Shown: positions 38,698 through 57,941, counted from the first letter of the stretch. The stretch is DNA of 64,000 nt from Trypanosoma brucei (GCA_000002445.1 CP000069.1:672001-736000); one strand, 5' to 3'. Notes: generated by a model from the letters alone, not told the origin. Made by a program: numbers and translations.

Positions 38698-40043
38698 CGT
38701 TTGCTTGCATCCACTCTTAGGTGTGGCGCCTTCGTTAGGGACCGCAGCACCGGCTGCTGTTTCCAGAGCATCTTCCCTTGCTTCATTTTCGTCCTCTGTT
38801 TTACCGTTATGTGTGTGTGTGTGCTACCGCGGTAAAGTAACCTAGCATGTTTGACGTTGTGTGCCACTTTTTTATGTGGACGAACGGTCCCACATGTTGG
38901 GAAATGTTAGTCCCTCAAGCACGTACGTGTACGAGAGAGGAATGAATGTATCGTATGCTATCTAGTAAATCCAACAAAAAGCATTCCCCTTTCTTTGACA
39001 CCTCCAGCATATTGCGCACCCTTTAAGGTTTGCCGGACGCGATCCTTCTACTTTCTACAGTTCGTTTGGCACAACGAATGGGACATTGTGAAGAAATCAG
39101 TTGTTCGGAACATAATATATTGCCCTTGATTAGCTTTGCAGACGTTTGTACGCCATGTGTACGTACAGAGCGAGTGGCACATCCTTGTCAGTGAATTGAA
39201 GAAACGGGGGAAAGTACACACTTCCTGAGTTAGAGCATGGCCTCACACATGTCTCTCTCCAGTCTTTTTTCGACTCTACCCTCTATTTTTTAGTTTTGAT
39301 ATTGTATTCCCTTTCATCGTCGCCCCAGTACTCGAGACACAGCTCACATTACTTATAGGTACCGCAGTCACTCCGCACTACAAGAAAAATACCAGCAACA
39401 AGTCAAAGTTTGAAATAAAGGGGAGGAAATGCGTAATTTAAGTGCTTTGCATGTACGGTGCATTTTTAATGTATTGGACCGATCCACGACGGTGACGCAA
39501 CTGTTACCCTCAGGATGCCACTACAGATTCGACCGCTCTAGCACCACACAGAGGGTCTACATTATGAATAACTCACAACATAACACATGAACAACGAATG
39601 AGGGAATAAATGATAAGATAAGGAAATGTCATTTGTGAAGAGCGCATTTATATTGTATGCATGGAAAGATGCACTTAATGTGGTTCGGTTTGTGTATTTC
39701 TAATTTGCTGCTGTAGTTGCTGACGTTTGTGGGCACTCGATAGTATTCTGTGTTTCGTATGAGGACCCCTACGTCTCTTCTTCCTTTCTTTGGCTCACGT
39801 TATCTGTAGGTTGTGCTGTACGCTCTGCCTTGACTGCTACTCGTATTGTTAGTCGGTTGTCGTTTTCACCCGTTACACTGCTGCCCTATATATATATATT
39901 GGCTTCGGTCCCACACTTTACTACATTATTTGTTAACCTACTGCTGTGATGCCCCTTCTATCATAGGAAAGGTATTATTAAGAAAAAGGCGTGGCGCGGG
40001 TGCCCCACTTCGTGGAAGAGAGTGGTTCTTAACGAATTAAGCT

Positions 40044-40610
40044 ATGCGGGCGTGGAGTAACCTGCTAGCGTCTGTGACGATGGCGCCGTTTTTTCTGCTA
40101 TGTTTTGTCTGCTCTTGCGTTTGGCCCGCCGTAGCTACTGCGGGAAGCATTCCCCTTGCTGTTGTGGGCAGTGTCATCACTTCAGAGGATGCGTACCGTT
40201 TTATTGAGGTTCAAGCTGTCGACGGCGCCACAGGAGCTGTTGTGCGCTCCGTGCCACTGGATGCAACGCTTACCTTTACTTTTCACGGTCTACCCCAAAC
40301 TGTAAGTGAGGTGCGGCTCTTGCCGAGGCTGCCTGAGCGGCGGTTTCGTCTCGATAGCAGTGCCTCTGTACTCACTGCGCCTTTGCGGACAAAAGATGGG
40401 GATGGGTGGCTCCACTTATCCGCGATTGTAGAGCAGCAAGATGGTTCACAAGCAGGGGATCAATTACCTGGGAGTATAAGTGCGGCAGTTATGGCAGCGA
40501 TGATTATTGCCCTTGCGGTGATTGGCCGATATCGATTGTTGTCGCTGTTTCAGTTTCCGGCTCCAAAACCGCCGAAGTTGCGTCGTGTAGCTGTGGCAGT
40601 GAATCGGTAA
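40044..40610 (+). CDS. Small hypothetical membrane protein with a signal peptide and a C-terminal TM segment; copy 1
   Basis: ATG start. The N-terminus is hydrophobic (MRAWSNLLASVTMAPFFLLCFVCSCVWPAVATA). The C-terminus has a hydrophobic AAVMAAMIIALAVIG followed by basic residues. Confidence 0.5.
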   Translation: MRAWSNLLASVTMAPFFLLCFVCSCVWPAVATAGSIPLAVVGSVITSEDAYRFIEVQAVDGATGAVVRSVPLDATLTFTFHGLPQTVSEVRLLPRLPERRFRLDSSASVLTAPLRTKDGDGWLHLSAIVEQQDGSQAGDQLPGSISAAVMAAMIIALAVIGRYRLLSLFQFPAPKPPKLRRVAVAVNR

Positions 40611-41017
40611 GGCGAGTTTATGGACACGTGTGTGTTCTTGACTTTTCTCACATTCGTATTGCGGTGTGCTGTTGCGAGCATTTTGCATTTTCTGGTGTTG
40701 GTGTTGGTGTTGGTGCTGGGTATAGGGGTGCTACTGCTTGTTTATATGTATGTGTGCGTGTAACTCTCACTAGCATATGAACTCGAGTACTTTCTTCCTG
40801 CCTCTGCTGCTCGTCTGTTATCATGAAGCAGGTACCTCCTAACTCCACTGAGTTTGTAATTGGGCGCATTTTAACCTTCCTGTTGCGTTGCCACTGTAAC
40901 AGCACTGTACCCCTTTCCTTCACTTCTGTGCATATGTGCGTGCCAACAACTTTCCGACGACCCGCTGTCTTGTAGAAAGTAGCAACAGGTGAGCCCGTCA
41001 CGCCTTCTCCCCTGACG

Positions 41018-41770
41018 ATGCCCGCACGTGGCTGTGCCCCTGTTGATGAGCAGATCGCTGGGACAGACACGGAAGGACGACGCTACAGGTCAGTGGAGGA
41101 GATGTGGGGACGCGAGTTGCAGGGTAACTTGTACGACGCGAAGACAGGGTGGTATGGTAAGTCTCTCCAGTACTGGGGCAGCGTTCCGGCTACCGTCAGC
41201 GGTGTACTGGGCGGTATGGATCATGTGCATGATATCGACATCCGTGATTCACGCGCTTTCATATGCTGCTTGCCGGAGCGCGGCACTACACGTGCACTTG
41301 ACTGCGGTGCCGGTATTGGTCGAATCACCAAGTCCCTTTTGTGCCACTTATACGATGTGACAGATCTTCTGGAACCGGTGGCAAGCATGCTGGAGAAGGC
41401 GAAAGAGGAACTTGAGGGGTTTCCAGTGGGCGATTTCTTTCAGTCGTCGATGGAGACAGCGAAGCTTCAACCGAAGACATACGACCTCATTGTTATTCAA
41501 TGGGCGGCGATCTATCTGACAGACGAGGACTTTGTTGCTTTCTTGGTACGCTGCAAGGAGGCACTGACACCGAAGGGGTACATATTCTTCAAGGAGAATT
41601 GCGCGTCTGACGACGAGTTCATTGTTGACAAGGAGGACAGTAGCCTGACGCGATCCGACAAGCACTACAAGCGTATATTTGCCGCTGCCGGTATTGAGGT
41701 TGTTAAGGAGGCTATGCAAGGCGATTGGCCTGATGATCTGCTGAAGGTGAAGATGTACGCACTACGCTAA
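41018..41770 (+). CDS. Alpha-N-terminal (X-Pro-Lys) protein methyltransferase (NTMT1/METTL11A-like, DUF858); copy 1
   Basis: EEMWGRELQGNLYDAKTGWYGKSLQYWGSVPATVSGVLGG...ALDCGAGIGRITKSLL...DLIVIQWAAIYLTDEDFVAFL. SAM-MTase motif I and the NTMT family signature are both present. Confidence 0.8.
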   Translation: MPARGCAPVDEQIAGTDTEGRRYRSVEEMWGRELQGNLYDAKTGWYGKSLQYWGSVPATVSGVLGGMDHVHDIDIRDSRAFICCLPERGTTRALDCGAGIGRITKSLLCHLYDVTDLLEPVASMLEKAKEELEGFPVGDFFQSSMETAKLQPKTYDLIVIQWAAIYLTDEDFVAFLVRCKEALTPKGYIFFKENCASDDEFIVDKEDSSLTRSDKHYKRIFAAAGIEVVKEAMQGDWPDDLLKVKMYALR

Positions 41771-42171
41771 GCAGTTGGTCCTCCCACCGGTTGTTGATGT
41801 GTTCTCACTTCTTGTTGGCGCATTGCTGTTGTCGTCACTTTGTTTTGTTGTTCTTTGCATGGTTTATTTTTTTCAATTAGAGGCCACTACCTCTGCGTTG
41901 CCATCGCTTGGCTTACCCTAACGGTGGCACTGCCAACCCTCGTACTCGTCACACGGTGGTCTTCTACCTCTGCATGAATTTTTTGTGTTATTTTTCTTAA
42001 TGTCCGACTATTTATTGTTGTTACGTCCCTTAGCTACTTTTGTGTGTGTTTAGTGTTGTTACTTTTGTAGCGGGTAAATCAATTCACGGTTATCAGGTTA
42101 AATAGGGGTAGCCATAATCAGGACTCTGGTGTGTAAAGGCGTGCGTGCGTAGACAGAGAGATTACATCGAG

Positions 42172-42591
42172 ATGTCTGCACTTGCGGAGGCCGAGCGCAT
42201 GGAGCGCGAAAAAGCCCTTATGGAGGGACAGCAGCGGGTGGACATGCTCCGTGAGACGGTACGTATAATGGCGAATCGGCAAGCCGTTCTCGTCGGGACG
42301 AAGCGCCGTCTGCAAATTTCCACCGGAGAGTTGCAGCGTCTCTCTTCTGACCACTGTGTGTATGAGAGTGTGGGCCGCGTGTTTCTCCGGACACCGGTGC
42401 CGGCGTTCATAGAGAAGCAGATGGAGGCTGCAGAGAGGTGCGAGGCCGAAGAGAAGCGGCTGATGAGTGAGAAGCAGAGAGTTGTGGAGCAACTGCAGAA
42501 GGATGAAGTGCAGCTCCGTGAAGCAGCACAGCAGTACATGGCTGAAATGAGTGCCCGTCGGCAGTTACAACAGCAGCAGCAGAAACAGTAA
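42172..42591 (+). CDS. Prefoldin-like coiled-coil protein; copy 1
   Basis: Two heptad-rich helices flank a central beta-hairpin-like VYESVGRVFLRTPV segment. The start is moved to the first ATG (42172). The track start is GTG. Confidence 0.55.
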   Translation: MSALAEAERMEREKALMEGQQRVDMLRETVRIMANRQAVLVGTKRRLQISTGELQRLSSDHCVYESVGRVFLRTPVPAFIEKQMEAAERCEAEEKRLMSEKQRVVEQLQKDEVQLREAAQQYMAEMSARRQLQQQQQKQ

Positions 42592-42963
42592 CAGCTACGC
42601 TCTGCCCGCAATCGGCGTTCTAGGTATCTGCCGATATTGTGCATTTCTGTTGTCTGAGGTGTGCGCTACAGAATGTGCTGCTTTGGAGTGCGGCACCCTA
42701 TCAGCAAGGGTCCGTTCCAAGTAGTTTTGGCGTGCGTGTGTGAGTTTGACTGTGATGCATGGGACACCGTATAATTTAACGTCTCAGTCACTGGTGATTT
42801 CTAGGTCTGTTTTCATTTGTGTGTACCCTGTTTTCTGTTTCCATTCCTGTTCTGGGTACATCTTCCTCTTTTGTTTCTCAAACCCGTTATGTGAACGTGG
42901 GGAGGAAGGGAGTGTGTGGCACTCGGTCGGTTGCGTTGAAGGTGAGGTTTGCTTGGACCGGCG

Positions 42964-45738
42964 ATGCTGTGCAGCGGCCGCATTATTCTCAAGAAGAAAT
43001 GGATTCCTCCACTTGGTTACCGGCCGAAGGATTTCGAGAGAAAATTGCGTTCTCCGCGTTCGTCGAAACCGTGGCGCGACCGCCGCGCGGCATCGGGTGG
43101 GCAGATTGAGGTTTCACCGAGTACCGCGGCGACGAACATTCCGCGCGGTGACCTTGTCTTTAGGCCCCCGCTCGGTATTCGTGATGTGCGACCGGGCTCT
43201 CCTTCGGCGCTTCTTCCAACCTTTGGATTTTCAGAAGAGCATCTTGCTGCGCATGCTCTTCCCGCTGCGGGGTCGCAGGTGGAAGGCGGGGATGTGTTAG
43301 CTGTAGCGGACCCACGGTCAGCATCACATCTGACGCTACCATTTGGGAGGGCACTAAACGTTAATGTTGAAGAAATCAAGACATATGAGGAGGGACCTGT
43401 GCCCATACACCTTCAGCAATTCCGGCGTAGTAGGCGGGAAGCAGCCGATTCCATCATTCTACCTCGCCATATTAACCGACTGTTCCATAAAATAATGGGT
43501 TGGTCGGAAGACCTCGTGAAAGTGGAAATGGATGAAGCCCCAACCCCAAACACAGGTGGAGTGCCCTCTGACACCGCGGCAGTGCGTGCGAAGGAAGCAC
43601 AGGAGTCTGAAGTTCCGTTGCTGAGGATGAAATACGATAACGTTGTGGACAAGATGAAGTATGGTGTTCTTCTTGACAATTATGAGAAGGACAAGTTTGC
43701 GATCGAACACCAACTTGAGATTGCTGGCGAGAAGTTCGAGCGGAAGTTCCTTGACTGGGAGGGTATGCATGTTCTCGATCAGGACCCCAGTGCGGCAGTG
43801 CGCGAGGTGCTTGAGAACAAGGCATCAATAGTAATGGAACAACCATCCTCGTTTGCCATACCTGTAGTGAATCGTGACTGCTGCCGCGGGTGTGGTGCGC
43901 TTCTGCAGGACCAAGATGAGAACTCTTTCGGGTATGTGCGGAAAGGTGATGTGGAGCGGTACATCATTGAGAAACAACAGAAAATGAGGGCGCGTGCTGA
44001 GTACGCGGATCGAATGTCTGAGCTGCAGGCGCACTGGCGGAAACATGGTCGGCGTGTGGGCGAGGAGTGGCTGGATTTTATGACCCAGGAGGAATTTGAT
44101 GCCTTTTACCGAGATAGGAACGCGCCGTTTGTATGCCACCGCTGCCACGCGCTAGAGAACCTCGGGGTGGAGGGGCGGCGTCGCATATGGTCAGCACCGG
44201 ACTTCACTGACAAGTTGCGTGCCCTTCGTGAGAAGAAATGTGTAGTGGTTCTTGTTGTTGACGTAACAGATTTTCCTGGGACTATGGTGTATGACCTCCC
44301 GGGCCTCATATCGATGAACAATGATGTGATAATTGCTGTGAATAAGATGGATTGTGTTAGGAATCGCTCCTTCAACTACCGAGGCAAGGATCGTGCGGTC
44401 GCTGCTTGCCTTGTGACCGAGCGGTACGTGAGACGGTGGGTGACTGGGATCGCCGTTCAGTTTGGACTACCACGTCACCAGATAAAGGACGTGATTCCTT
44501 TGTCTGCGAAGCGTGGTTGGAATGTAGAGGCTCTAATAGCGGCTGTGGAGGAGGCCTCCAACCTCAACCTTCGGCGACCAACAAAACCCATACCGACGTA
44601 TTTCGTTGGTGTTGCGAATGTTGGGAAGTCCTCCGTTATTAACGCCATTGCCCACAAACTGTATGTGCCTCTGCCACCCCACCCGGAGAGTCGGAAGGTA
44701 TACTACACGAAGAAGGCACCGGATGGAAGTGAGTCTGTTTTCTGGCGGTGGTACACACCTCCTAATGTGAACCAGGCGGAAATGATTGACATTCCATCTC
44801 GGCACGACAAGAAAGCCTCGAAGCTGGTAACTACCTCCTCCTTGCCTGGTACCACGGTTGACGCTGTTGCAGTGCGCGTTTCGCTGAGTAAAGGCGCGGA
44901 GAAGGGCCGTGCACATCTGTTCGACACACCCGGCCTCCTTCCGCATTGGCACCGTCACTCACCCCTGACGCTACTACAGATGCGACGCACCCTCATTCGC
45001 AAGTTCCGCAATCCTCAGTGCTTTATCCTGGTGCCTGGGAACACATTGTTTCTCGGAGGCCTCTGTGCCGTGGACGTAGTGAAAGGAACGTCGCGCGGGA
45101 TGCTTTTCATGGTTTACACGTCGCAGAAGGTACGTAACGCCATCATTAACACAGACCGGTCGGATGAGTTTTGGAGGGAACAACTTGGTCGTGCGCTTGA
45201 CCCACCCGGATCTGTGGAACAAGTTGGTGATCTTCGGCTCACGGAGTCGAGGAGCTATTTGTTTGAATGCTACCAGCGTAACCGAAAGCGGCCAAAGGCG
45301 GATATCTATTTCTGCGGACTTGGCTGGGTTGCGTTCTGTGTGAATGAGCCCGCAGATGTGGTACTGCGTGTGCGGACCTTACCGGGAGTAGTGCATGGTG
45401 TGCGCGAACCGTTGCGGTACAAGGACCTACTGGCATTTAAAGGGTGGCCGAAACTGCGGCGTCGTTTCACTTCTGCCGGTGTTCCTAATGACGAGGAGGA
45501 TGATGACAACTCCATTGCCACCGTTGTACGACTGACTGCTGGAGGTGGTGCTTGTGGGTTATCCGCTGCACCTGTGTGCGGCTCACCGGAAGAAGATGTT
45601 GATGGTCCTGCAGTACGGGTTGTTCGCAAGTCGGTCTTGCCGAAACCCATTCCGGCGTCGTCCACTCCTTTCGACGGCGTTGTTGAGGAACTGAGCCTAT
45701 CGGGACAAGCGGGAGGCGGTACGGGTGCGGGGATGTGA
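42964..45738 (+). CDS. Circularly permuted GTPase of the YqeH/NOA1 family, with an N-terminal CxxC...CxxC zinc ribbon and a long R/S/P-rich N-terminal extension; copy 1
   Basis: G4 (NKMD, in IIAVNKMDC) precedes G1 (GVANVGKSSVINAI). A DTPG motif follows. The zinc ribbon reads CCRGCGALL...FVCHRCHAL. The start is set at the first ATG after a polypyrimidine/AG tract (about 42790..42900). The track start is TTG. Confidence 0.7.
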   Translation: MLCSGRIILKKKWIPPLGYRPKDFERKLRSPRSSKPWRDRRAASGGQIEVSPSTAATNIPRGDLVFRPPLGIRDVRPGSPSALLPTFGFSEEHLAAHALPAAGSQVEGGDVLAVADPRSASHLTLPFGRALNVNVEEIKTYEEGPVPIHLQQFRRSRREAADSIILPRHINRLFHKIMGWSEDLVKVEMDEAPTPNTGGVPSDTAAVRAKEAQESEVPLLRMKYDNVVDKMKYGVLLDNYEKDKFAIEHQLEIAGEKFERKFLDWEGMHVLDQDPSAAVREVLENKASIVMEQPSSFAIPVVNRDCCRGCGALLQDQDENSFGYVRKGDVERYIIEKQQKMRARAEYADRMSELQAHWRKHGRRVGEEWLDFMTQEEFDAFYRDRNAPFVCHRCHALENLGVEGRRRIWSAPDFTDKLRALREKKCVVVLVVDVTDFPGTMVYDLPGLISMNNDVIIAVNKMDCVRNRSFNYRGKDRAVAACLVTERYVRRWVTGIAVQFGLPRHQIKDVIPLSAKRGWNVEALIAAVEEASNLNLRRPTKPIPTYFVGVANVGKSSVINAIAHKLYVPLPPHPESRKVYYTKKAPDGSESVFWRWYTPPNVNQAEMIDIPSRHDKKASKLVTTSSLPGTTVDAVAVRVSLSKGAEKGRAHLFDTPGLLPHWHRHSPLTLLQMRRTLIRKFRNPQCFILVPGNTLFLGGLCAVDVVKGTSRGMLFMVYTSQKVRNAIINTDRSDEFWREQLGRALDPPGSVEQVGDLRLTESRSYLFECYQRNRKRPKADIYFCGLGWVAFCVNEPADVVLRVRTLPGVVHGVREPLRYKDLLAFKGWPKLRRRFTSAGVPNDEEDDDNSIATVVRLTAGGGACGLSAAPVCGSPEEDVDGPAVRVVRKSVLPKPIPASSTPFDGVVEELSLSGQAGGGTGAGM

Positions 45739-46415
45739 GTCTGGCGTGCTACCGTTTGTGCGGAGAACCGACCGACCTTTGTGGGTATAACACAATGCAC
45801 TGATGTTTGATTCATCCTTTTTCATGTTGTCCCAACCGACTTACTTGTTCCGCTCCGTTCCGTTCTGTTGCGTTGTGCTGCTGATACTGCAATTTCTTTC
45901 TCGTCGCTTTTGTTGTCAATTTTCTTTATCGTGCTGCGGTGATCTGCAATGGAGGGGTATGCCGTCGCTGGGGATAGACGTTTGCATTTACATGGATAGT
46001 GTTTTCATAGCTGTTCTACCCCTGTTTCTGGAGACGCGGCATTGCTGTTGGCGTTACTTTATATGATTAGTTTTGGTTGTGTTCTGGGGGTGGATGTGCG
46101 ATGGACGGGTGTGCTGTCTGTCACCGAAGGCCGATGCGTTTTGGTACGCCGTGACTGATGTTACTGTTATTTTTTTAAAGGTTGCGTTGAGTTTCTATCG
46201 CCTTGATGTGTGTTGTTAGTGTCTTTTATTTTTGTTGTGTCACTCTTATTTTGCTGATTACTGCTTTATAGTGTAGCAGTTGTCATTCTCGATATCCTTT
46301 CTCCTTGATCTACTTCATTACGTGTAATATTACCCTGGTGGGATAACTCTGCCCAAGGCCGATAGTTATAACGCTAACAAGAATCATCTACTTTCAGTCA
46401 TCTAAAGGTTTGCAA

Positions 46416-47453
46416 ATGTCATCCGCTCCTCTGAGGGTATACGTTCAGTGTAATCCATTACTTGACGTCTCGGCTCACGTGTCCGACGAATTTTTGGTCA
46501 AGTATGGTTTGGAGCGCGGTACGGCCATCTTGTTGTCTGAGCGCCAGAAAGGAATATTCGACGATATCGAGAAAATGCCCAATGTGCGGTATGTCCCTGG
46601 TGGATCTGGCTTGAACGTGGCGCGCGTTGCGCAGTGGATGCAGCAAGCGTATAAGGGGAAGTTTGTTACATATGTTGGCTGCATTGCAGATGATCGGTAC
46701 GGCAAGGTTCTGAAGGAAGCTGCCGAGCATGAAGGAATTGTGATGGCTGTTGAGCATACGACGAAAGCAGGGAGTGGTGCGTGTGCAGTTTGTATCACCG
46801 GCAAGGAACGCACTCTTGTTGCTGATCTTGGTGCAGCAAATCACCTCTCCAGTGAGCATATGCGCTCCCCTGCTGTCGTGAGGGCGATGGATGAATCCAG
46901 AATTTTCTATTTCTCCGGTTTCACGTTGACAGTTGACGTTAATCACGTTCTTCAGGCGTGCAGAAAGGCTCGTGAGGTGGATGGACTTTTTATGATCAAC
47001 TTATCGGCCCCTTTTATTATGCAATTCTTTTCCGCGCAACTTGGGGAGGTTCTGCCCTATACTGATATAATTGTGGCCAACCGACATGAGGCAAAGGAGT
47101 TTGCCAACATGATGAAGTGGGATACGGACTGTGTCGAGGAGATTGCAAGGCGAGCAGTATCTGAGGTTCCTTACACAGGCACAAAAGGTCGTGTTGTTGT
47201 GTTCACTCGTGATATTGAACCTACTGTAATTGCAACTAAGGATGGTGTGGAGACGGTTCCTGTACCTCAGTTAGATCAGGACAAAGTAATTGACATGAAT
47301 GGTGCTGGGGATGCATTTGTGGGTGGATTTTTGAGTGCTTATGCCGTTGGTAAGGATTTGCGGCGCTGTTGCGAAACTGGCCACTACACAGCACAAGAGG
47401 TTATCCAGCAAGACGGTTGCTCGTTCCCCGAGAAGCCCAGTTTCTCTCCTTGA
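46416..47453 (+). CDS. ADK: Adenosine kinase (PfkB/ribokinase family); copy 1
   Basis: Starts at the first ATG, 46416, and reads MSSAPLRVYVQCNPLLDVSAHV...; the N-terminal substrate lid has VPGGSGLNVARVAQWM. The C-terminal anion hole reads DMNGAGDAFVGGF. 345 aa from the first ATG. Confidence 0.9.
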   Translation: MSSAPLRVYVQCNPLLDVSAHVSDEFLVKYGLERGTAILLSERQKGIFDDIEKMPNVRYVPGGSGLNVARVAQWMQQAYKGKFVTYVGCIADDRYGKVLKEAAEHEGIVMAVEHTTKAGSGACAVCITGKERTLVADLGAANHLSSEHMRSPAVVRAMDESRIFYFSGFTLTVDVNHVLQACRKAREVDGLFMINLSAPFIMQFFSAQLGEVLPYTDIIVANRHEAKEFANMMKWDTDCVEEIARRAVSEVPYTGTKGRVVVFTRDIEPTVIATKDGVETVPVPQLDQDKVIDMNGAGDAFVGGFLSAYAVGKDLRRCCETGHYTAQEVIQQDGCSFPEKPSFSP

Positions 47454-48510: not shown

Positions 48511-48909
48511 CATTTATATTGTATGCATGGAAAGATGCACTTAATGTGGTTCGGTTTGTGTATTTCTAATTTGCTGCTGTAGTTGCTGACGTTTGTGGGC
48601 ACTCGATAGTATTCTGTGTTTCGTATGAGGACCCCTACGTCTCTTCTTCCTTTCTTTGGCTCACGTTATCTGTAGGTTGTGCTGTACGCTCTGCCTTGAC
48701 TGCTACTCGTATTGTTAGTCGGTTGTCGTTTTCACCCGTTACACTGCTGCCCTATATATATATATTGGCTTCGGTCCCACACTTTACTACATTATTTGTT
48801 AACCTACTGCTGTGATGCCCCTTCTATCATAGGAAAGGTATTATTAAGAAAAAGGCGTGGCGCGGGTGCCCCACTTCGTGGAAGAGAGTGGTTCTTAACG
48901 AATTAAGCT

Positions 48910-49883: not shown

Positions 49884-50636
49884 ATGCCCGCACGTGGCTG
49901 TGCCCCTGTTGATGAGCAGATCGCTGGGACAGACACGGAAGGACGACGCTACAGGTCAGTGGAGGAGATGTGGGGACGCGAGTTGCAGGGTAACTTGTAC
50001 GACGCGAAGACAGGGTGGTATGGTAAGTCTCTCCAGTACTGGGGCAGCGTTCCGGCTACCGTCAGCGGTGTACTGGGCGGTATGGATCATGTGCATGATA
50101 TCGACATCCGTGATTCACGCGCTTTCATATGCTGCTTGCCGGAGCGCGGCACTACACGTGCACTTGACTGCGGTGCCGGTATTGGTCGAATCACCAAGTC
50201 CCTTTTGTGCCACTTATACGATGTGACAGATCTTCTGGAACCGGTGGCAAGCATGCTGGAGAAGGCGAAAGAGGAACTTGAGGGGTTTCCAGTGGGCGAT
50301 TTCTTTCAGTCGTCGATGGAGACAGCGAAGCTTCAACCGAAGACATACGACCTCATTGTTATTCAATGGGCGGCGATCTATCTGACAGACGAGGACTTTG
50401 TTGCTTTCTTGGTACGCTGCAAGGAGGCACTGACACCGAAGGGGTACATATTCTTCAAGGAGAATTGCGCGTCTGACGACGAGTTCATTGTTGACAAGGA
50501 GGACAGTAGCCTGACGCGATCCGACAAGCACTACAAGCGTATATTTGCCGCTGCCGGTATTGAGGTTGTTAAGGAGGCTATGCAAGGCGATTGGCCTGAT
50601 GATCTGCTGAAGGTGAAGATGTACGCACTACGCTAA
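49884..50636 (+). CDS. Alpha-N-terminal protein methyltransferase; copy 2
   Basis: Identical to copy 1. Confidence 0.8.
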   Translation: MPARGCAPVDEQIAGTDTEGRRYRSVEEMWGRELQGNLYDAKTGWYGKSLQYWGSVPATVSGVLGGMDHVHDIDIRDSRAFICCLPERGTTRALDCGAGIGRITKSLLCHLYDVTDLLEPVASMLEKAKEELEGFPVGDFFQSSMETAKLQPKTYDLIVIQWAAIYLTDEDFVAFLVRCKEALTPKGYIFFKENCASDDEFIVDKEDSSLTRSDKHYKRIFAAAGIEVVKEAMQGDWPDDLLKVKMYALR

Positions 50637-51037
50637 GCAGTTGGTCCTCCCACCGGTTGTTGATGTGTTCTCACTTCTTGTTGGCGCATTGCTGTTGTCG
50701 TCACTTTGTTTTGTTGTTCTTTGCATGGTTTATTTTTTTCAATTAGAGGCCACTACCTCTGCGTTGCCATCGCTTGGCTTACCCTAACGGTGGCACTGCC
50801 AACCCTCGTACTCGTCACACGGTGGTCTTCTACCTCTGCATGAATTTTTTGTGTTATTTTTCTTAATGTCCGACTATTTATTGTTGTTACGTCCCTTAGC
50901 TACTTTTGTGTGTGTTTAGTGTTGTTACTTTTGTAGCGGGTAAATCAATTCACGGTTATCAGGTTAAATAGGGGTAGCCATAATCAGGACTCTGGTGTGT
51001 AAAGGCGTGCGTGCGTAGACAGAGAGATTACATCGAG

Positions 51038-51457
51038 ATGTCTGCACTTGCGGAGGCCGAGCGCATGGAGCGCGAAAAAGCCCTTATGGAGGGACAGCAG
51101 CGGGTGGACATGCTCCGTGAGACGGTACGTATAATGGCGAATCGGCAAGCCGTTCTCGTCGGGACGAAGCGCCGTCTGCAAATTTCCACCGGAGAGTTGC
51201 AGCGTCTCTCTTCTGACCACTGTGTGTATGAGAGTGTGGGCCGCGTGTTTCTCCGGACACCGGTGCCGGCGTTCATAGAGAAGCAGATGGAGGCTGCAGA
51301 GAGGTGCGAGGCCGAAGAGAAGCGGCTGATGAGTGAGAAGCAGAGAGTTGTGGAGCAACTGCAGAAGGATGAAGTGCAGCTCCGTGAAGCAGCACAGCAG
51401 TACATGGCTGAAATGAGTGCCCGTCGGCAGTTACAACAGCAGCAGCAGAAACAGTAA
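51038..51457 (+). CDS. Prefoldin-like protein; copy 2
   Basis: Identical to copy 1. Confidence 0.55.
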   Translation: MSALAEAERMEREKALMEGQQRVDMLRETVRIMANRQAVLVGTKRRLQISTGELQRLSSDHCVYESVGRVFLRTPVPAFIEKQMEAAERCEAEEKRLMSEKQRVVEQLQKDEVQLREAAQQYMAEMSARRQLQQQQQKQ

Positions 51458-51829
51458 CAGCTACGCTCTGCCCGCAATCGGCGTTCTAGGTATCTGCCGA
51501 TATTGTGCATTTCTGTTGTCTGAGGTGTGCGCTACAGAATGTGCTGCTTTGGAGTGCGGCACCCTATCAGCAAGGGTCCGTTCCAAGTAGTTTTGGCGTG
51601 CGTGTGTGAGTTTGACTGTGATGCATGGGACACCGTATAATTTAACGTCTCAGTCACTGGTGATTTCTAGGTCTGTTTTCATTTGTGTGTACCCTGTTTT
51701 CTGTTTCCATTCCTGTTCTGGGTACATCTTCCTCTTTTGTTTCTCAAACCCGTTATGTGAACGTGGGGAGGAAGGGAGTGTGTGGCACTCGGTCGGTTGC
51801 GTTGAAGGTGAGGTTTGCTTGGACCGGCG

Positions 51830-54604
51830 ATGCTGTGCAGCGGCCGCATTATTCTCAAGAAGAAATGGATTCCTCCACTTGGTTACCGGCCGAAGGATTT
51901 CGAGAGAAAATTGCGTTCTCCGCGTTCGTCGAAACCGTGGCGCGACCGCCGCGCGGCATCGGGTGGGCAGATTGAGGTTTCACCGAGTACCGCGGCGACG
52001 AACATTCCGCGCGGTGACCTTGTCTTTAGGCCCCCGCTCGGTATTCGTGATGTGCGACCGGGCTCTCCTTCGGCGCTTCTTCCAACCTTTGGATTTTCAG
52101 AAGAGCATCTTGCTGCGCATGCTCTTCCCGCTGCGGGGTCGCAGGTGGAAGGCGGGGATGTGTTAGCTGTAGCGGACCCACGGTCAGCATCACATCTGAC
52201 GCTACCATTTGGGAGGGCACTAAACGTTAATGTTGAAGAAATCAAGACATATGAGGAGGGACCTGTGCCCATACACCTTCAGCAATTCCGGCGTAGTAGG
52301 CGGGAAGCAGCCGATTCCATCATTCTACCTCGCCATATTAACCGACTGTTCCATAAAATAATGGGTTGGTCGGAAGACCTCGTGAAAGTGGAAATGGATG
52401 AAGCCCCAACCCCAAACACAGGTGGAGTGCCCTCTGACACCGCGGCAGTGCGTGCGAAGGAAGCACAGGAGTCTGAAGTTCCGTTGCTGAGGATGAAATA
52501 CGATAACGTTGTGGACAAGATGAAGTATGGTGTTCTTCTTGACAATTATGAGAAGGACAAGTTTGCGATCGAACACCAACTTGAGATTGCTGGCGAGAAG
52601 TTCGAGCGGAAGTTCCTTGACTGGGAGGGTATGCATGTTCTCGATCAGGACCCCAGTGCGGCAGTGCGCGAGGTGCTTGAGAACAAGGCATCAATAGTAA
52701 TGGAACAACCATCCTCGTTTGCCATACCTGTAGTGAATCGTGACTGCTGCCGCGGGTGTGGTGCGCTTCTGCAGGACCAAGATGAGAACTCTTTCGGGTA
52801 TGTGCGGAAAGGTGATGTGGAGCGGTACATCATTGAGAAACAACAGAAAATGAGGGCGCGTGCTGAGTACGCGGATCGAATGTCTGAGCTGCAGGCGCAC
52901 TGGCGGAAACATGGTCGGCGTGTGGGCGAGGAGTGGCTGGATTTTATGACCCAGGAGGAATTTGATGCCTTTTACCGAGATAGGAACGCGCCGTTTGTAT
53001 GCCACCGCTGCCACGCGCTAGAGAACCTCGGGGTGGAGGGGCGGCGTCGCATATGGTCAGCACCGGACTTCACTGACAAGTTGCGTGCCCTTCGTGAGAA
53101 GAAATGTGTAGTGGTTCTTGTTGTTGACGTAACAGATTTTCCTGGGACTATGGTGTATGACCTCCCGGGCCTCATATCGATGAACAATGATGTGATAATT
53201 GCTGTGAATAAGATGGATTGTGTTAGGAATCGCTCCTTCAACTACCGAGGCAAGGATCGTGCGGTCGCTGCTTGCCTTGTGACCGAGCGGTACGTGAGAC
53301 GGTGGGTGACTGGGATCGCCGTTCAGTTTGGACTACCACGTCACCAGATAAAGGACGTGATTCCTTTGTCTGCGAAGCGTGGTTGGAATGTAGAGGCTCT
53401 AATAGCGGCTGTGGAGGAGGCCTCCAACCTCAACCTTCGGCGACCAACAAAACCCATACCGACGTATTTCGTTGGTGTTGCGAATGTTGGGAAGTCCTCC
53501 GTTATTAACGCCATTGCCCACAAACTGTATGTGCCTCTGCCACCCCACCCGGAGAGTCGGAAGGTATACTACACGAAGAAGGCACCGGATGGAAGTGAGT
53601 CTGTTTTCTGGCGGTGGTACACACCTCCTAATGTGAACCAGGCGGAAATGATTGACATTCCATCTCGGCACGACAAGAAAGCCTCGAAGCTGGTAACTAC
53701 CTCCTCCTTGCCTGGTACCACGGTTGACGCTGTTGCAGTGCGCGTTTCGCTGAGTAAAGGCGCGGAGAAGGGCCGTGCACATCTGTTCGACACACCCGGC
53801 CTCCTTCCGCATTGGCACCGTCACTCACCCCTGACGCTACTACAGATGCGACGCACCCTCATTCGCAAGTTCCGCAATCCTCAGTGCTTTATCCTGGTGC
53901 CTGGGAACACATTGTTTCTCGGAGGCCTCTGTGCCGTGGACGTAGTGAAAGGAACGTCGCGCGGGATGCTTTTCATGGTTTACACGTCGCAGAAGGTACG
54001 TAACGCCATCATTAACACAGACCGGTCGGATGAGTTTTGGAGGGAACAACTTGGTCGTGCGCTTGACCCACCCGGATCTGTGGAACAAGTTGGTGATCTT
54101 CGGCTCACGGAGTCGAGGAGCTATTTGTTTGAATGCTACCAGCGTAACCGAAAGCGGCCAAAGGCGGATATCTATTTCTGCGGACTTGGCTGGGTTGCGT
54201 TCTGTGTGAATGAGCCCGCAGATGTGGTACTGCGTGTGCGGACCTTACCGGGAGTAGTGCATGGTGTGCGCGAACCGTTGCGGTACAAGGACCTACTGGC
54301 ATTTAAAGGGTGGCCGAAACTGCGGCGTCGTTTCACTTCTGCCGGTGTTCCTAATGACGAGGAGGATGATGACAACTCCATTGCCACCGTTGTACGACTG
54401 ACTGCTGGAGGTGGTGCTTGTGGGTTATCCGCTGCACCTGTGTGCGGCTCACCGGAAGAAGATGTTGATGGTCCTGCAGTACGGGTTGTTCGCAAGTCGG
54501 TCTTGCCGAAACCCATTCCGGCGTCGTCCACTCCTTTCGACGGCGTTGTTGAGGAACTGAGCCTATCGGGACAAGCGGGAGGCGGTACGGGTGCGGGGAT
54601 GTGA
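51830..54604 (+). CDS. Circularly permuted YqeH/NOA1-like GTPase; copy 2
   Basis: Identical translation to copy 1. Confidence 0.7.
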   Translation: MLCSGRIILKKKWIPPLGYRPKDFERKLRSPRSSKPWRDRRAASGGQIEVSPSTAATNIPRGDLVFRPPLGIRDVRPGSPSALLPTFGFSEEHLAAHALPAAGSQVEGGDVLAVADPRSASHLTLPFGRALNVNVEEIKTYEEGPVPIHLQQFRRSRREAADSIILPRHINRLFHKIMGWSEDLVKVEMDEAPTPNTGGVPSDTAAVRAKEAQESEVPLLRMKYDNVVDKMKYGVLLDNYEKDKFAIEHQLEIAGEKFERKFLDWEGMHVLDQDPSAAVREVLENKASIVMEQPSSFAIPVVNRDCCRGCGALLQDQDENSFGYVRKGDVERYIIEKQQKMRARAEYADRMSELQAHWRKHGRRVGEEWLDFMTQEEFDAFYRDRNAPFVCHRCHALENLGVEGRRRIWSAPDFTDKLRALREKKCVVVLVVDVTDFPGTMVYDLPGLISMNNDVIIAVNKMDCVRNRSFNYRGKDRAVAACLVTERYVRRWVTGIAVQFGLPRHQIKDVIPLSAKRGWNVEALIAAVEEASNLNLRRPTKPIPTYFVGVANVGKSSVINAIAHKLYVPLPPHPESRKVYYTKKAPDGSESVFWRWYTPPNVNQAEMIDIPSRHDKKASKLVTTSSLPGTTVDAVAVRVSLSKGAEKGRAHLFDTPGLLPHWHRHSPLTLLQMRRTLIRKFRNPQCFILVPGNTLFLGGLCAVDVVKGTSRGMLFMVYTSQKVRNAIINTDRSDEFWREQLGRALDPPGSVEQVGDLRLTESRSYLFECYQRNRKRPKADIYFCGLGWVAFCVNEPADVVLRVRTLPGVVHGVREPLRYKDLLAFKGWPKLRRRFTSAGVPNDEEDDDNSIATVVRLTAGGGACGLSAAPVCGSPEEDVDGPAVRVVRKSVLPKPIPASSTPFDGVVEELSLSGQAGGGTGAGM

Positions 54605-55281
54605 GTCTGGCGTGCTACCGTTTGTGCGGAGAACCGACCGACCTTTGTGGGTATAACACAATGCACTGATGTTTGATTCATCCTTTTTCATGTTGTCCCA
54701 ACCGACTTACTTGTTCCGCTCCGTTCCGTTCTGTTGCGTTGTGCTGCTGATACTGCAATTTCTTTCTCGTCGCTTTTGTTGTCAATTTTCTTTATCGTGC
54801 TGCGGTGATCTGCAATGGAGGGGTATGCCGTCGCTGGGGATAGACGTTTGCATTTACATGGATAGTGTTTTCATAGCTGTTCTACCCCTGTTTCTGGAGA
54901 CGCGGCATTGCTGTTGGCGTTACTTTATATGATTAGTTTTGGTTGTGTTCTGGGGGTGGATGTGCGATGGACGGGTGTGCTGTCTGTCACCGAAGGCCGA
55001 TGCGTTTTGGTACGCCGTGACTGATGTTACTGTTATTTTTTTAAAGGTTGCGTTGAGTTTCTATCGCCTTGATGTGTGTTGTTAGTGTCTTTTATTTTTG
55101 TTGTGTCACTCTTATTTTGCTGATTACTGCTTTATAGTGTAGCAGTTGTCATTCTCGATATCCTTTCTCCTTGATCTACTTCATTACGTGTAATATTACC
55201 CTGGTGGGATAACTCTGCCCAAGGCCGATAGTTATAACGCTAACAAGAATCATCTACTTTCAGTCATCTAAAGGTTTGCAA

Positions 55282-56319
55282 ATGTCATCCGCTCCTCTGA
55301 GGGTATACGTTCAGTGTAATCCATTACTTGACGTCTCGGCTCACGTGTCCGACGAATTTTTGGTCAAGTATGGTTTGGAGCGCGGTACGGCCATCTTGTT
55401 GTCTGAGCGCCAGAAAGGAATATTCGACGATATCGAGAAAATGCCCAATGTGCGGTATGTCCCTGGTGGATCTGGCTTGAACGTGGCGCGCGTTGCGCAG
55501 TGGATGCAGCAAGCGTATAAGGGGAAGTTTGTTACATATGTTGGCTGCATTGCAGATGATCGGTACGGCAAGGTTCTGAAGGAAGCTGCCGAGCATGAAG
55601 GAATTGTGATGGCTGTTGAGCATACGACGAAAGCAGGGAGTGGTGCGTGTGCAGTTTGTATCACCGGCAAGGAACGCACTCTTGTTGCTGATCTTGGTGC
55701 AGCAAATCACCTCTCCAGTGAGCATATGCGCTCCCCTGCTGTCGTGAGGGCGATGGATGAATCCAGAATTTTCTATTTCTCCGGTTTCACGTTGACAGTT
55801 GACGTTAATCACGTTCTTCAGGCGTGCAGAAAGGCTCGTGAGGTGGATGGACTTTTTATGATCAACTTATCGGCCCCTTTTATTATGCAATTCTTTTCCG
55901 CGCAACTTGGGGAGGTTCTGCCCTATACTGATATAATTGTGGCCAACCGACATGAGGCAAAGGAGTTTGCCAACATGATGAAGTGGGATACGGACTGTGT
56001 CGAGGAGATTGCAAGGCGAGCAGTATCTGAGGTTCCTTACACAGGCACAAAAGGTCGTGTTGTTGTGTTCACTCGTGATATTGAATCAACAGTGCTTGCA
56101 ACTAAGGATGGTGTGGAGACGGTTCCTGTACCTCAGTTAGATCAGGACAAAGTAATTGACATGAATGGTGCTGGGGATGCATTTATGGGTGGATTTTTGA
56201 GTGCTTATGCCGTTGGTAAGGATTTGCGGCGCTGTTGCGAAACTGGCCACTACACAGCACAAGAGGTTATCCAGCGTGACGGTTGCTCGTTCCCCGAGAA
56301 GCCCAGTTTCTCTCCTTGA
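55282..56319 (+). CDS. ADK: Adenosine kinase; copy 2
   Basis: Same as copy 1 except P/S and I/L in DIE(P/S)TV(I/L)A, V/M in DAF(V/M)GGF, and Q/R near the C-terminus. The 3' flank is unrelated to that of copy 1. Confidence 0.9.
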   Translation: MSSAPLRVYVQCNPLLDVSAHVSDEFLVKYGLERGTAILLSERQKGIFDDIEKMPNVRYVPGGSGLNVARVAQWMQQAYKGKFVTYVGCIADDRYGKVLKEAAEHEGIVMAVEHTTKAGSGACAVCITGKERTLVADLGAANHLSSEHMRSPAVVRAMDESRIFYFSGFTLTVDVNHVLQACRKAREVDGLFMINLSAPFIMQFFSAQLGEVLPYTDIIVANRHEAKEFANMMKWDTDCVEEIARRAVSEVPYTGTKGRVVVFTRDIESTVLATKDGVETVPVPQLDQDKVIDMNGAGDAFMGGFLSAYAVGKDLRRCCETGHYTAQEVIQRDGCSFPEKPSFSP

Positions 56320-57941
56320 GTTTTTTTGTTTTCGTTGTCGGTTGTTAATGCCAAATACGGTGGTTGATATGATTTCGATGGTGTGGTTGATGATTTTTTT
56401 TTAAAATTTAGTATAATTGTTTTTTTTTGTAAAGGATGGTCGATAATGTTTGTTGATGTTCTTTATCTTTTTCGTTGTTTCAATTTTTTTTTAACACACA
56501 GTTTTATATGCTGTATGGTGGTGTTTTTTTGTGTGTGTGTGTTTGTTTGTGTGAGGGGTGAAAGCAGGTAGATAAACTTGTCGTTAATACCCCTCTTGTT
56601 GTTGTGTTTATGTTATTTAATTTTTATTTGACTTAGTTCGCGTTGGTGTTGGTGTTTTTTGTTTCGTTGTTAATTCAGCTGTTTGGTGCTTATGAGGTTC
56701 TAATTGAAAAGGTGATATTGATGTGTTTATCACTATGTTATAGGATCAAAAACAAATTCAATAATTTGTCTTTTGTACCACATTGGTGAACCTTCGCATC
56801 TATAATTCTTTTAATTTCTCTTTATTGCTTCCGTTGTATATCATTCTGTGTCTTTTTTACTTGGTTTTGATGAGTCGGTCTTCTGTCATAATATTTATTC
56901 CTTGTCTCTTCATTCTTTGAATTTGTAAACAATAATGATGGTAATGGGGATTATTTTTCTTTATCGTTGTCATCCCTATCAGCGTCCGTGTAGCCTTCTG
57001 TTTGTGCATTTTAATAAACATAGTTAATTTTGTTGTTACTATGTGGAGTTGAGTTTCGCATTATGTTGTAGATATTAGGTTTTTATAAGATCTCTGGGTC
57101 GTTTTGGAGCTGCTAGGGGATTGAACCGCAGTACGTGTGATGAGTAGCGACCCACTTCCGTTGCAAGTTTTTTTTTTTGATGTGGGGGAATGGGAGGGAA
57201 GAGAGGTGCTTACCTTATTGCTTCTGATGCCGAGGTTTCACGTTATCGCTGACCAAGTGGTTGCCCTTTCCTAGGATGTGCGGATAATTTAAAGTTAATG
57301 TCGTGATATGAGATGCCAAAATGGTCAGGGCTTTCGGGGTGTGTTGCTAAATTTTTTTTGAGGTACTTGCATGTCTCGGGTTCCGATTCTCTTTTCTGGT
57401 TGTTGCAAAATCTATGTGATTACATCGGTTGGCCGCGGAGCTCTGTTTGCTTGTAGTTTCGAGGGGCCGCTGTTTTGGATTGAGGGGAGGGGATATTTTG
57501 TGGAACCTTCCGGCATTTCGAAAAGTGTGTTGTTGTGGTGTGCTGTATATTAGGTTGATATTATCTGTGCAATGAAAGGTTGAGGCAAAGGGCTACAGGA
57601 ACTGTTCCTAGAATGCAGTCGGAATGTGTGCGATTTCAGCTAATATATATATATATATATAAGTAAGGGAGGGTAAGGAGTTTGTTCCGTTGCTTTCACA
57701 ATCCTCTGCGTTGTTGGTATTAGGGGGTTACAACATGTGTTGTTGTTTTTTCCCTTTCACTAATTACCCGACTTTTCACCGTTGTGCAGGGGCTATAGGG
57801 TGGACAGTTCCGCTGGTTAGTTTTGCTGTTATATATGTGATACTTTTTAACGTACCTATTTTTAAACTTTTCTCCCCCTGCTTTCCTCCCTCCGAAGCGC
57901 ATAGTGATTTTTTTTTTAAATATCTCTTCTCGTGGTTGAAA

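What the first reader, a model, noticed from the sequence alone, without database searches (positions are those of the whole stretch)
39646..56321. Tandem segmental duplication of 8,866 bp carrying five genes, including adenosine kinase
Two head-to-tail units are essentially identical over about 7.8 kb. Each holds a membrane protein, the N-terminal methyltransferase, a prefoldin-like protein, the YqeH/NOA1-like GTPase and adenosine kinase. A roughly 1 kb non-duplicated linker separates them. This matches the known organisation of adenosine kinase as a tandem gene pair in Trypanosoma brucei. The near-identity across whole intervening genes points to recent duplication or continuing gene conversion. 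Copy number here may be unstable, and assembly collapse is a risk.
Basis: partly seen in the sequence, partly recalled or inferred. Interest (0 to 1): 0.6.

Follow-up and report, generated by a model that had tools for sequence, protein, structure and literature searches.

The report
Known trypanosome adenosine kinase segmental duplication
This is the already annotated two-copy, five-gene tandem duplication around the adenosine kinase genes on Trypanosoma brucei TREU927 chromosome 6; it is real and kept identical by ongoing homogenisation, but it is ordinary and known.

Summary
Window 39644-47461 and 48510-56326 are head-to-tail copies with a period of 8,866 bp, aligned over 7,818 columns with 8 mismatches and 1 indel. 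The first 7,576 bp are 100% identical. Every difference lies in the last 242 bp, at the 3' end of the adenosine kinase (ADK) gene.

The window is T. b. brucei TREU927 chromosome 6. All thirteen proteins match GenBank AAZ11787-AAZ11799 exactly, including the published ADK pair Q584S6/Q584S0, which differ at 4 of 345 residues.

Three refinements:
- The "1 kb linker" is 654 bp of unique sequence plus a 396-bp third copy of a GTPase gene fragment, which abuts unit B with 2 bp of microhomology.
- The near-identity reflects concerted evolution, not a recent duplication. The junctions and the ADK 3' differences are shared with T. b. gambiense. Strain differences from T. b. equiperdum IVM-t1 are carried by both copies in each genome (24 such columns, 0 copy-specific ones shared between strains).
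- The other Trypanozoon assemblies arrange the repeats differently, and IVM-t1 has one ADK. Either the locus is structurally polymorphic or one assembly has ordered two repeat loops wrongly.

T. vivax and T. cruzi have a single copy. Verdict: already known, low interest.

The parts
39644..47461 (+). Unit A of the tandem segmental duplication (segments X+R+Y)
   Evidence: Self-BLAST; boundaries read
48510..56326 (+). Unit B of the tandem segmental duplication (X'+R''+Y')
   Evidence: collinear with T. b. equiperdum IVM-t1 from 48116 to 64000
39644..47219 (+). Homogenised part of unit A: 7,576 bp, 100% identical to 48510-56085
   Evidence: The corresponding part of unit B (48510-56085) differs from the IVM-t1 orthologue by 22 substitutions and 4 indels
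47220..47461 (+). Non-homogenised tail of unit A (ADK 3' end). It holds 8 paralogue-specific substitutions and 1 indel relative to 56086-56326
   Evidence: The same paralogue-specific states occur in T. b. gambiense
45062..45457 (+). R: 396-bp segment inside the GTPase coding sequence (codons ~700-832); source of the junction fragment. Third copy R'' at 53928-54323
48116..48511 (+). R': 396-bp GTPase gene fragment at the duplication junction, 100% identical to R and R''. It overlaps the start of unit B by 2 bp (GC)
   Evidence: YqeH-like_C hit on its ORF
47462..48115 (+). Z: 654-bp unique AT-rich segment directly after ADK copy 1, so presumably its 3' UTR. No homologue elsewhere in the window
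   Evidence: Present after type-1 ADK ends in the gambiense and OVI assemblies. Absent from the 31 kb of the IVM-t1 locus fetched
40044..40610 (+). 188-aa protein with an N-terminal hydrophobic stretch and one C-proximal transmembrane stretch (copy 1; copy 2 at 48910-49476)
   Evidence: no Pfam hit; AAZ11788/AAZ11794
41018..41770 (+). 250-aa alpha-N-terminal protein methyltransferase (copy 1; copy 2 at 49884-50636)
   Evidence: PF05891, 215 bits; AAZ11789/AAZ11795
42172..42591 (+). 139-aa prefoldin-type subunit (copy 1; copy 2 at 51038-51457)
   Evidence: PF01920, 39 bits; AAZ11790/AAZ11796
42964..45738 (+). 924-aa circularly permuted YqeH/NOA1-like GTPase (copy 1; copy 2 at 51830-54604)
   Evidence: MMR_HSR1 and YqeH-like_C hits; motif order G4(460)-G1(549)-G3(654); AAZ11791/AAZ11797
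46416..47453 (+). Adenosine kinase copy 1 (Q584S6, AAZ11792; residues P269, I272, V302, Q332), followed by Z
55282..56319 (+). Adenosine kinase copy 2 (Q584S0, AAZ11798; residues S269, L272, M302, R332), followed by the ancestral downstream flank and the HECT ligase gene
   Evidence: (PDB 4N08 carries these residues)
48154..48582 (+). 142-aa ORF annotated as a hypothetical protein (AAZ11793). It is a GTPase C-terminal fragment read through the R'|X junction into 23 unrelated codons, so most likely a gene relic
37321..38697 (+). Single-copy upstream flank gene: PH-domain Ser/Thr kinase (AAZ11787)
57735..61196 (+). Single-copy downstream flank gene: HECT ubiquitin ligase (AAZ11799). ADK-HECT adjacency is conserved in T. 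cruzi

Best explanation
This is a genuine head-to-tail segmental duplication inside one polycistronic transcription unit of T. b. brucei TREU927 chromosome 6. It gives two copies each of a small membrane protein, an N-terminal methyltransferase, a prefoldin-type subunit, a YqeH-like GTPase and adenosine kinase.

Write the locus as U-X-R-Y-Z-R'-X-R-Y-D. U and D are the single-copy flanks. X holds the first three genes and most of the GTPase gene. R is 396 bp of the GTPase gene. Y is the GTPase 3' end plus ADK. Z is 654 bp of unique sequence. The 8,866-bp period is therefore the sum of two loops that both close on R: [Y-Z-R], 3,054 bp, and [X-R], 5,812 bp.

Shown here:
- The ancestral state is single-copy, with ADK upstream of the HECT ligase gene.
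- The novel junctions Y|Z, Z|R' and R'|X (the last with 2 bp of microhomology) arose before the T. brucei subspecies diverged.
- The copies evolve in concert. They are identical within a genome and differ between strains. Only the last ~240 bp of homology, the ADK 3' end, keeps old paralogue-specific differences.

Inferred:
- Homogenisation is by gene conversion and/or unequal crossing-over between the long direct repeats.
- The same recombination, acting on R or on the units, generates the arrangement and copy-number variants seen in other strains. One example is the loss of [Y-Z-R], and with it one ADK, in T. b. equiperdum IVM-t1.
- The functional effect is doubled dosage of five genes in an organism without gene-specific promoters. 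The two ADK copies also carry unrelated 3' flanks (Z versus D) and could be regulated differently after transcription.
For: - Repeat geometry and the identity gradient.
- Gene content.
- Identity of the locus with the deposited TREU927 annotation and the published ADK pair; PMC2724708; PMC10208901.
- Junctions shared with other strains: the T. b. gambiense locus L001 aligns collinearly across Y|Z and Z|R' (L001 7960-9042 = window 47430-48511) and across R'|X (L001 5373-7858 = window 48116-50611). IVM-t1 has the same R|X junction.
- Concerted evolution: in a four-way alignment of the 5.8-kb [X-R] unit (two TREU927 copies, two IVM-t1 copies), 24 variable columns (13 substitutions, 3 indel events) have the pattern 'both copies of one strain versus both copies of the other'. 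None is copy-specific across strains, and 3 are singletons. The two gambiense copies are 100% identical to each other over 2,055 bp, yet each differs from TREU927.
- Divergence: TREU927 and IVM-t1 differ by 22 substitutions in the 7.6-kb unit, 27 in 6,343 bp of the upstream flank and 44 in 7,689 bp of the downstream flank. The two TREU927 copies differ at 0 of 7,576 bp.
- The 8 ADK 3' differences are orthologous between TREU927 and gambiense, so the duplication predates the split.
- Single-copy outgroups: T. vivax has prefoldin-GTPase-ADK. T. cruzi has ADK-HECT.
Against: - Perfect identity between copies could partly be an assembly product, a consensus built from pooled reads. The same caveat applies to polishing of the IVM-t1 long-read assembly.
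- The TREU927 order (Z-R-X) is unique among the four assemblies. Gambiense, OVI and IVM-t1 contain X-R-X and/or Z-R-Y instead. The alternative order U-X-R-X-R-Y-Z-R-Y-D uses exactly the same pairwise junctions.
- The origin of Z is unknown.
- Dosage and differential 3' UTR regulation are inferred, not tested here.
Confidence: 0.85

Rival explanations
1. Loop-order misassembly. The TREU927 reference contains the right pieces but orders the two R-bounded loops wrongly. The true layout would be U-X-R-X-R-Y-Z-R-Y-D: a 5,812-bp duplication of the four upstream genes, with the first GTPase truncated, followed by two directly adjacent ADK genes 3,054 bp apart. It would not be one 8,866-bp five-gene unit.
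For: - Both orders share every pairwise junction and differ only in what is linked across the 396-bp R.
- The long-read IVM-t1 assembly shows X-R-X.
- Gambiense contigs show X-R-X and Z-R-Y, and OVI shows Z-R-Y.
- No other assembly has the 142-aa Z-R-X product.
- The alternative order needs only two simple tandem duplications.
Against: - R is only 396 bp, so, from general knowledge of Sanger sequencing and not from a tool result, single Sanger reads and 2-3 kb mate pairs should resolve the order.
- The gambiense and OVI loci carry gaps exactly at repeat boundaries, so they are themselves unreliable.
- IVM-t1 lacks Z altogether, so it cannot show where [Y-Z-R] sits.
- All observed layouts derive by simple R-R or unit-unit deletions from a common U-[X-R-Y-Z-R]x2-Y-D precursor, so real polymorphism is plausible.
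Confidence: 0.25
2. A very recent duplication, with the identity explained simply by lack of time to diverge and no gene conversion.
For: Zero differences over 7,576 bp.
Against: - The novel junctions and the paralogue-specific ADK 3' ends are shared with T. b. gambiense. The R|X junction is shared with IVM-t1. The event therefore predates strain divergence.
- The strains differ by 22 substitutions in the unit, and both copies carry the strain's own state at every one of the 13 substitution columns of the [X-R] alignment that separate the strains.
- The last 242 bp are ~96% identical while the rest is 100%. That is the signature of an old duplication homogenised except at the edge of homology.
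Confidence: 0.04
3. Assembly artefact: the locus is really single-copy and one unit was written twice.
For: Perfect identity is what an artificial duplication would give. OVI collapses the region into one unit.
Against: - The two ADK genes differ at 8 nucleotides and have unrelated 3' flanks.
- Both ADK types occur in the independent gambiense assembly.
- The junctions Z|R' and R'|X exist in independent assemblies, including a gap-free long-read one.
- A peptide specific to the Q584S0 form was identified in T. b. rhodesiense (PMC2724708).
Confidence: 0.03

Closest known systems
T. brucei adenosine kinase 'tandem gene' Tb927.6.2300 / Tb927.6.2360 (Q584S6 / Q584S0)
   Same: It is this locus. Both products match exactly. 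The 4-of-345 residue difference matches PMC2724708. The PDB structures 4N08 and 2XTB are these proteins.
   Different: The papers I could read treat the pair as two nearly identical genes. They do not describe the four co-duplicated genes, the GTPase fragment at the junction, the 100%/96% identity step or the strain differences. In the TREU927 layout the two ADK genes are not adjacent; they are 8.9 kb apart.
Tandem gene arrays and tandem segmental duplications of T. brucei (Jackson 2007, PMC1855330)
   Same: Head-to-tail copies within a polycistronic unit; repeat units of several dissimilar genes; concerted evolution within genomes; divergence where the repeat structure or the intergenic sequence is disrupted.
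   Different: That study analysed arrays with more than 3 copies. This two-copy locus does not appear in its text or in the four supplementary files held as text.
Segmental-duplication and tandem-array differences between T. b. brucei 927 and T. b. gambiense DAL972 (Jackson et al. 2010, PMC2854126)
   Same: The same kind of between-subspecies difference in repeat arrangement, and the same caveat that assembled copy number can be arbitrary.
   Different: This locus is not mentioned there. Here the paralogues are near-identical housekeeping genes, not the rapidly diverging surface proteins that paper emphasises.
Complex duplication junctions with a templated insertion and microhomology (replication template-switching models such as FoSTeS/MMBIR; named from my own knowledge)
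   Same: The duplication junction carries a 396-bp piece copied from ~3 kb away within the unit, joined to the next unit through 2 bp of microhomology.
   Different: A two-step history, with an ADK-only duplication first and then a second duplication ending in R, explains the same junctions without template switching. The source of Z is unknown.

Membership tests
Tandem segmental duplication in a T. brucei polycistronic unit | Head-to-tail copies on the same strand, contiguous apart from a junction | tested here: met
   Direct repeat with an offset of 8,866 bp; all genes on the + strand
Tandem segmental duplication in a T. brucei polycistronic unit | Repeat unit made of several dissimilar contiguous genes | tested here: met
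   Five unrelated genes per unit
Tandem segmental duplication in a T. brucei polycistronic unit | Copies evolve in concert relative to other strains | tested here: met
   24 'both copies versus both copies' columns, 0 copy-specific columns shared between strains; the gambiense copies are identical to each other but not to TREU927
Tandem segmental duplication in a T. brucei polycistronic unit | Single-copy state in outgroup species | tested here: met
   T. vivax and T. cruzi each have one ADK and one GTPase at the syntenic locus. T. congolense could not be checked because no contig is on record
Tandem segmental duplication in a T. brucei polycistronic unit | Physical linkage of the two units in the stated order in the living strain | not testable with these tools
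   Needs TREU927 long reads or PCR. The other assemblies show different linkages across R
Adenosine kinase (PfkB/ribokinase superfamily), T. brucei pair | PfkB domain and close similarity to solved adenosine kinases | tested here: met
   PF00294, 186 bits. Copy 1 aligns to T. brucei ADK 4N08 over all 345 residues, E=1.9e-233, differing only at the four paralogue-specific residues. The 4N08 chain (P0126) is the copy-2 sequence plus a three-residue tag
Adenosine kinase (PfkB/ribokinase superfamily), T. brucei pair | Exact identity to Q584S6 and Q584S0, differing at 4 of 345 residues | tested here: met
   PMC2724708
YqeH/NOA1-type circularly permuted GTPase | Permuted G-motif order (G4 before G1 and G3) | tested here: met
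   NKMD at residue 460, GVANVGKS at 549, DTPG at 654
YqeH/NOA1-type circularly permuted GTPase | YqeH-like C-terminal domain | tested here: inconclusive
   PF21516 scores 23.9 bits in the full protein, below the 27.7 cutoff, and 28.5 bits in the 142-aa fragment ORF, just above it
Alpha-N-terminal protein methyltransferase (Methyltransf_PK) | Full-length PF05891 match | tested here: met
   215 bits, profile positions 3-218 of 218
Prefoldin beta-type subunit | PF01920 match above the cutoff | tested here: met
   39 bits against a cutoff of 27.6
Template-switch (microhomology-mediated) complex duplication junction | Microhomology at breakpoints and a nearby-templated insertion | tested here: inconclusive
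   2-bp GC overlap at R'|X, and a 396-bp insert templated from within the unit. The Z|R' junction cannot be assessed for microhomology because the original context of Z is unknown. A two-step duplication explains the junctions equally well

The most novel reading that the evidence does not exclude
The 396-bp GTPase fragment R may act as a recombination hub. Together with the long repeats, it would make this locus structurally polymorphic across the T. brucei group: ADK copy number 1 in T. b. equiperdum IVM-t1 and 2 in TREU927, a truncated first GTPase copy in IVM-t1 and in the gambiense assembly, and a different loop order in TREU927. A single intrachromosomal recombination could then halve ADK dosage. 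ADK activates adenosine-analogue prodrugs, so such variants could shift drug susceptibility. A second possibility is that the widely used TREU927 reference is mis-ordered here.
Probability: 0.4. Interest if true: 0.3.

Novelty: already known. Interest (0 to 1): 0.2.

Why it matters
ADK is the gateway enzyme for adenosine salvage and for activating adenosine-analogue trypanocides such as cordycepin and tubercidin derivatives (PMC10208901, PMC8069773). Its being present as two genes has been cited as a reason it is harder to lose than the single-gene P2 transporter. This analysis adds only modest detail.

- The two genes sit in long, perfectly identical direct repeats that recombine. One related strain's assembly has only one ADK.
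- Short-read mapping, RNAi or CRISPR design and copy-number calls across Tb927.6.2260-2360 will be ambiguous.
- The gene order in this stretch of the reference should be confirmed with long reads.

Nothing here changes our understanding of trypanosome biology.

Tried and rejected
- **Origin of Z (47462-48115).** Sensitive blastn (word size 7) and Smith-Waterman comparison against the downstream and upstream flanks scored no better than shuffled sequence. The T. brucei genome itself is not searchable with these tools.
- **Chimeric ADK in T. equiperdum OVI.** It has the type-1 patch followed by type-2 sites, and I considered it as direct evidence of an ADK1 x ADK2 crossover. I rejected this because the OVI scaffold has a 10-N gap exactly at the X|R boundary and keeps a stray type-1 ADK end. 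It is a collapsed repeat, and the chimera may be a consensus artefact.
- **Three ADK copies in gambiense.** One contig reads Z-R-Y-Z-R, which suggested this. I rejected it because the two Z stretches are identical, and the few mismatches sit in the last ~85 bases before a gap and at the contig start, as if the contig wraps around.
- **Ancestry of the four ADK residue differences.** Outgroup comparison gave a mixed answer. V302 is ancestral, S269 and R332 match T. congolense, and residue 272 matches neither.
- **Look-ups that failed.** The exact look-up of ADK copy 2 found no record, although the protein is in the collection. Luscher et al. 2007 (PMC2151413) is not held.
- **Other searches.** tRNA and Rfam scans of the whole window found nothing. 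Further look-ups with the methyltransferase found no additional long assemblies, only short Logan contigs that end in the repeats.


Full report
**Observation.** A self-comparison of the window finds one long direct repeat, 39644-47461 against 48510-56326. It spans 7,818 aligned columns with 8 mismatches and one 1-bp gap, at an offset of 8,866 bp (seeds). A base-by-base alignment shows the differences are not spread along the unit. 39644-47219 is identical to 48510-56085 over all 7,576 bp. All eight substitutions and the indel fall between 47220 and 47454.

**Anatomy.** Each unit encodes five genes on the + strand:
- a 188-aa protein with an N-terminal hydrophobic stretch and one C-proximal transmembrane stretch, with no Pfam match;
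- a 250-aa alpha-N-terminal methyltransferase (PF05891, 215 bits);
- a 139-aa prefoldin-type subunit (PF01920);
- a 924-aa GTPase with G motifs in the permuted order G4-G1-G3 and weak YqeH-like C-terminal similarity;
- a 345-aa PfkB adenosine kinase (ADK).

The 1,048-bp 'linker' is not all unique. 48116-48511 is a third, 100% identical copy of 45062-45457 and 53928-54323, which encode codons ~700-832 of the GTPase gene. This fragment abuts unit B through a 2-bp GC overlap. Only 47462-48115 (654 bp, called Z here) has no counterpart in the window.

I write the locus as U-X-R-Y-Z-R'-X-R-Y-D. On this notation the 8,866-bp period is the sum of two loops that both close on R: [Y-Z-R] = 3,054 bp and [X-R] = 5,812 bp. 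One search reports the same two spacings. The homology ends 8 bp after the ADK stop codon, so the two ADK copies have unrelated 3' flanks (Z versus D). The duplicated segment starts 400 bp upstream of the first gene and includes pyrimidine-rich tracts. I infer that copy 2 of that gene keeps its native RNA-processing signals.

**Identity of the locus.** ADK copy 1 equals AAZ11792.1/Q584S6, and copy 2 equals AAZ11798.1/Q584S0, both of T. b. brucei TREU927. The flanking kinase, the ten duplicated genes, the 142-aa fragment ORF and the HECT ligase match AAZ11787 to AAZ11799 in consecutive order, on a 1,618,915-bp record. Solved T. brucei ADK structures match at E~1e-233, and 4N08 carries the copy-2 residues.

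[quoted passage not shown] It treats the two as functionally equivalent (PMC10208901). Papers use Tb927.6.2300 and Tb927.6.2360 as the gene identifiers. My codon comparison gives the same four replacements, P269S, I272L, V302M and Q332R, plus silent changes. The duplication is therefore deposited, annotated and known.

**Age and homogenisation.** Three other Trypanozoon assemblies could be fetched.
- In T. b. gambiense DAL972, contigs run collinearly across the Y|Z, Z|R' and R'|X junctions.
- In the gap-free T. b. equiperdum IVM-t1 assembly the same R|X junction is present.
- The eight ADK 3'-end differences are orthologous between TREU927 and gambiense. The type-1 states sit next to Z and the type-2 states next to D in both.

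The duplication therefore predates the divergence of these lineages. Yet the copies are identical within genomes. In a four-way alignment of the 5.8-kb [X-R] unit, 24 variable columns (13 substitutions and three indel events) separate both TREU927 copies from both IVM-t1 copies. None separates copy 1 from copy 2 across strains, and three are singletons in IVM-t1. The gambiense copies are 100% identical to each other over 2,055 bp but differ from TREU927.

Between TREU927 and IVM-t1 the unit has 22 substitutions and 4 indels in 7.6 kb, and the single-copy flanks have 27 in 6,343 bp and 44 in 7,689 bp. The two TREU927 copies differ at 0 of 7,576 bp. Had the copies diverged independently since before the strain split, about 22 or more differences would be expected. 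Zero is then very improbable, at roughly e^-22.

This is concerted evolution, by gene conversion and/or unequal crossing-over. The process fails only near the edge of homology, where old paralogue-specific differences persist. One caveat applies: identical copies can also be produced by assembly or polishing. The three singletons in IVM-t1 show that its copies were not simply merged.

**Ancestral state.** T. vivax has prefoldin-GTPase-ADK once. T. cruzi has GTPase ... ADK-HECT once. The ADK-HECT adjacency makes D the ancestral downstream flank, and it makes the Y|Z-R'|X region the novel junction. T. congolense could not be examined because no contig is on record.

**Arrangement differs between assemblies.**
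- TREU927 reads U-X-R-Y-Z-R-X-R-Y-D.
- IVM-t1 reads U-X-R-X-R-Y-D. It has two [X-R] units, with the first GTPase truncated to 854 aa at the R|X junction. It has one ADK of type 2 and no Z.
- Gambiense contigs contain X-R-X and Z-R-Y, separated by gaps.
- The OVI scaffold contains Z-R-Y, with a 10-N gap exactly at the X|R boundary.

All of these fit the grammar U-X-R-([Y-Z-R] or [X-R])*-Y-D. The IVM-t1 layout follows from the TREU927 layout by one R x R' deletion of 3,054 bp. However, the alternative order U-X-R-X-R-Y-Z-R-Y-D has the same set of pairwise junctions as TREU927. It differs only in what is linked across the 396-bp R. It also needs only two simple tandem duplications.

Two readings remain: the locus is truly polymorphic, or one assembly has ordered the loops wrongly. 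I give the TREU927 order about 70-75%. This rests on general knowledge, not on a tool result: a 396-bp repeat is spanned by single Sanger reads and by mate pairs in a finished sequence. [quoted passage not shown] The tools available here cannot settle the question.

**Mechanism of origin (inferred).** There are two possibilities.
- One complex event duplicated [X-R-Y], with a junction filled by Z and a 396-bp piece templated from within the unit.
- Alternatively there were two steps: first a duplication of ADK with the GTPase 3' end ([R-Y], with Z at the junction), then a second duplication whose right breakpoint lay at the end of R' and joined to X through GC microhomology. Later deletions by homologous recombination followed.

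The second route accounts for all the layouts seen.

**Function (inferred from established trypanosome biology).** Genes in a polycistronic unit lack individual promoters, so duplication raises dosage. Different 3' flanks allow the two ADK copies to be regulated differently after transcription. Jackson 2007 makes the same general points for T. brucei tandem arrays.

**Verdict.** The added value is limited to four items:
- the exact junction structure;
- the identity step;
- the direct evidence for concerted evolution;
- the warning about arrangement and copy number across strains.

Noticed in passing
window 579-814 and 15007-14772: A 236-bp inverted repeat, 100% identical, with arms 14 kb apart. 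It brackets most of the minus-strand gene cluster. One arm lies in the gene-free region next to the strand switch. It is GC-rich and non-coding in appearance. I did not establish what it is.
   Followed up: partly
window ~14020-18029: A divergent strand-switch region. Long ORFs lie on the minus strand up to 14020 and on the plus strand from 18029, and GC skew changes sign at ~16 kb. The duplicated locus lies ~22-40 kb into the plus-strand transcription unit.
   Followed up: no
window 32654-33241: An 87-bp tandem repeat, ~6-6.7 copies at 95-99% identity, inside a 794-aa ORF (32537-34921). The called products of the orthologous gene are 742 aa in gambiense, with a RESC6 Pfam mark, and 437 aa in IVM-t1, with only a faint RESC6 mark. 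I did not determine why the product lengths differ.
   Followed up: partly
window 7020-7233 and 7486-7699: A 214-bp direct repeat, 98.6% identical, 466 bp apart, overlapping a 219-aa plus-strand ORF (7112-7771).
   Followed up: no
window 47220-47229 vs 56086-56095: Five of the eight ADK paralogue differences are packed into 10 bp (CCTACTGTAA versus TCAACAGTGC) and change two residues. The same patch is conserved in gambiense. This clustering looks like a short imported patch or a multi-nucleotide change rather than independent point mutations.
   Followed up: partly
L005 10001-11125 (T. b. equiperdum IVM-t1): The single ADK gene has a 1-bp deletion near codon 332. This gives an annotated 374-aa product that reads into the 3' flank. 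It is probably a long-read indel error rather than a real frameshift.
   Followed up: partly
L004 12034-12043 (T. equiperdum OVI): A 10-N scaffold gap sits exactly at the X|R boundary and is followed by a stray type-1 ADK 3' end. The annotated 722-aa GTPase and the chimeric ADK there are likely products of repeat collapse.
   Followed up: yes
L007/L008 3325-6920 (T. cruzi): In T. cruzi two amastin genes and an epimerase gene lie between the GTPase and ADK. None of these was called between the GTPase and ADK in T. brucei or T. vivax, so this interval is a site of lineage-specific insertions.
   Followed up: no
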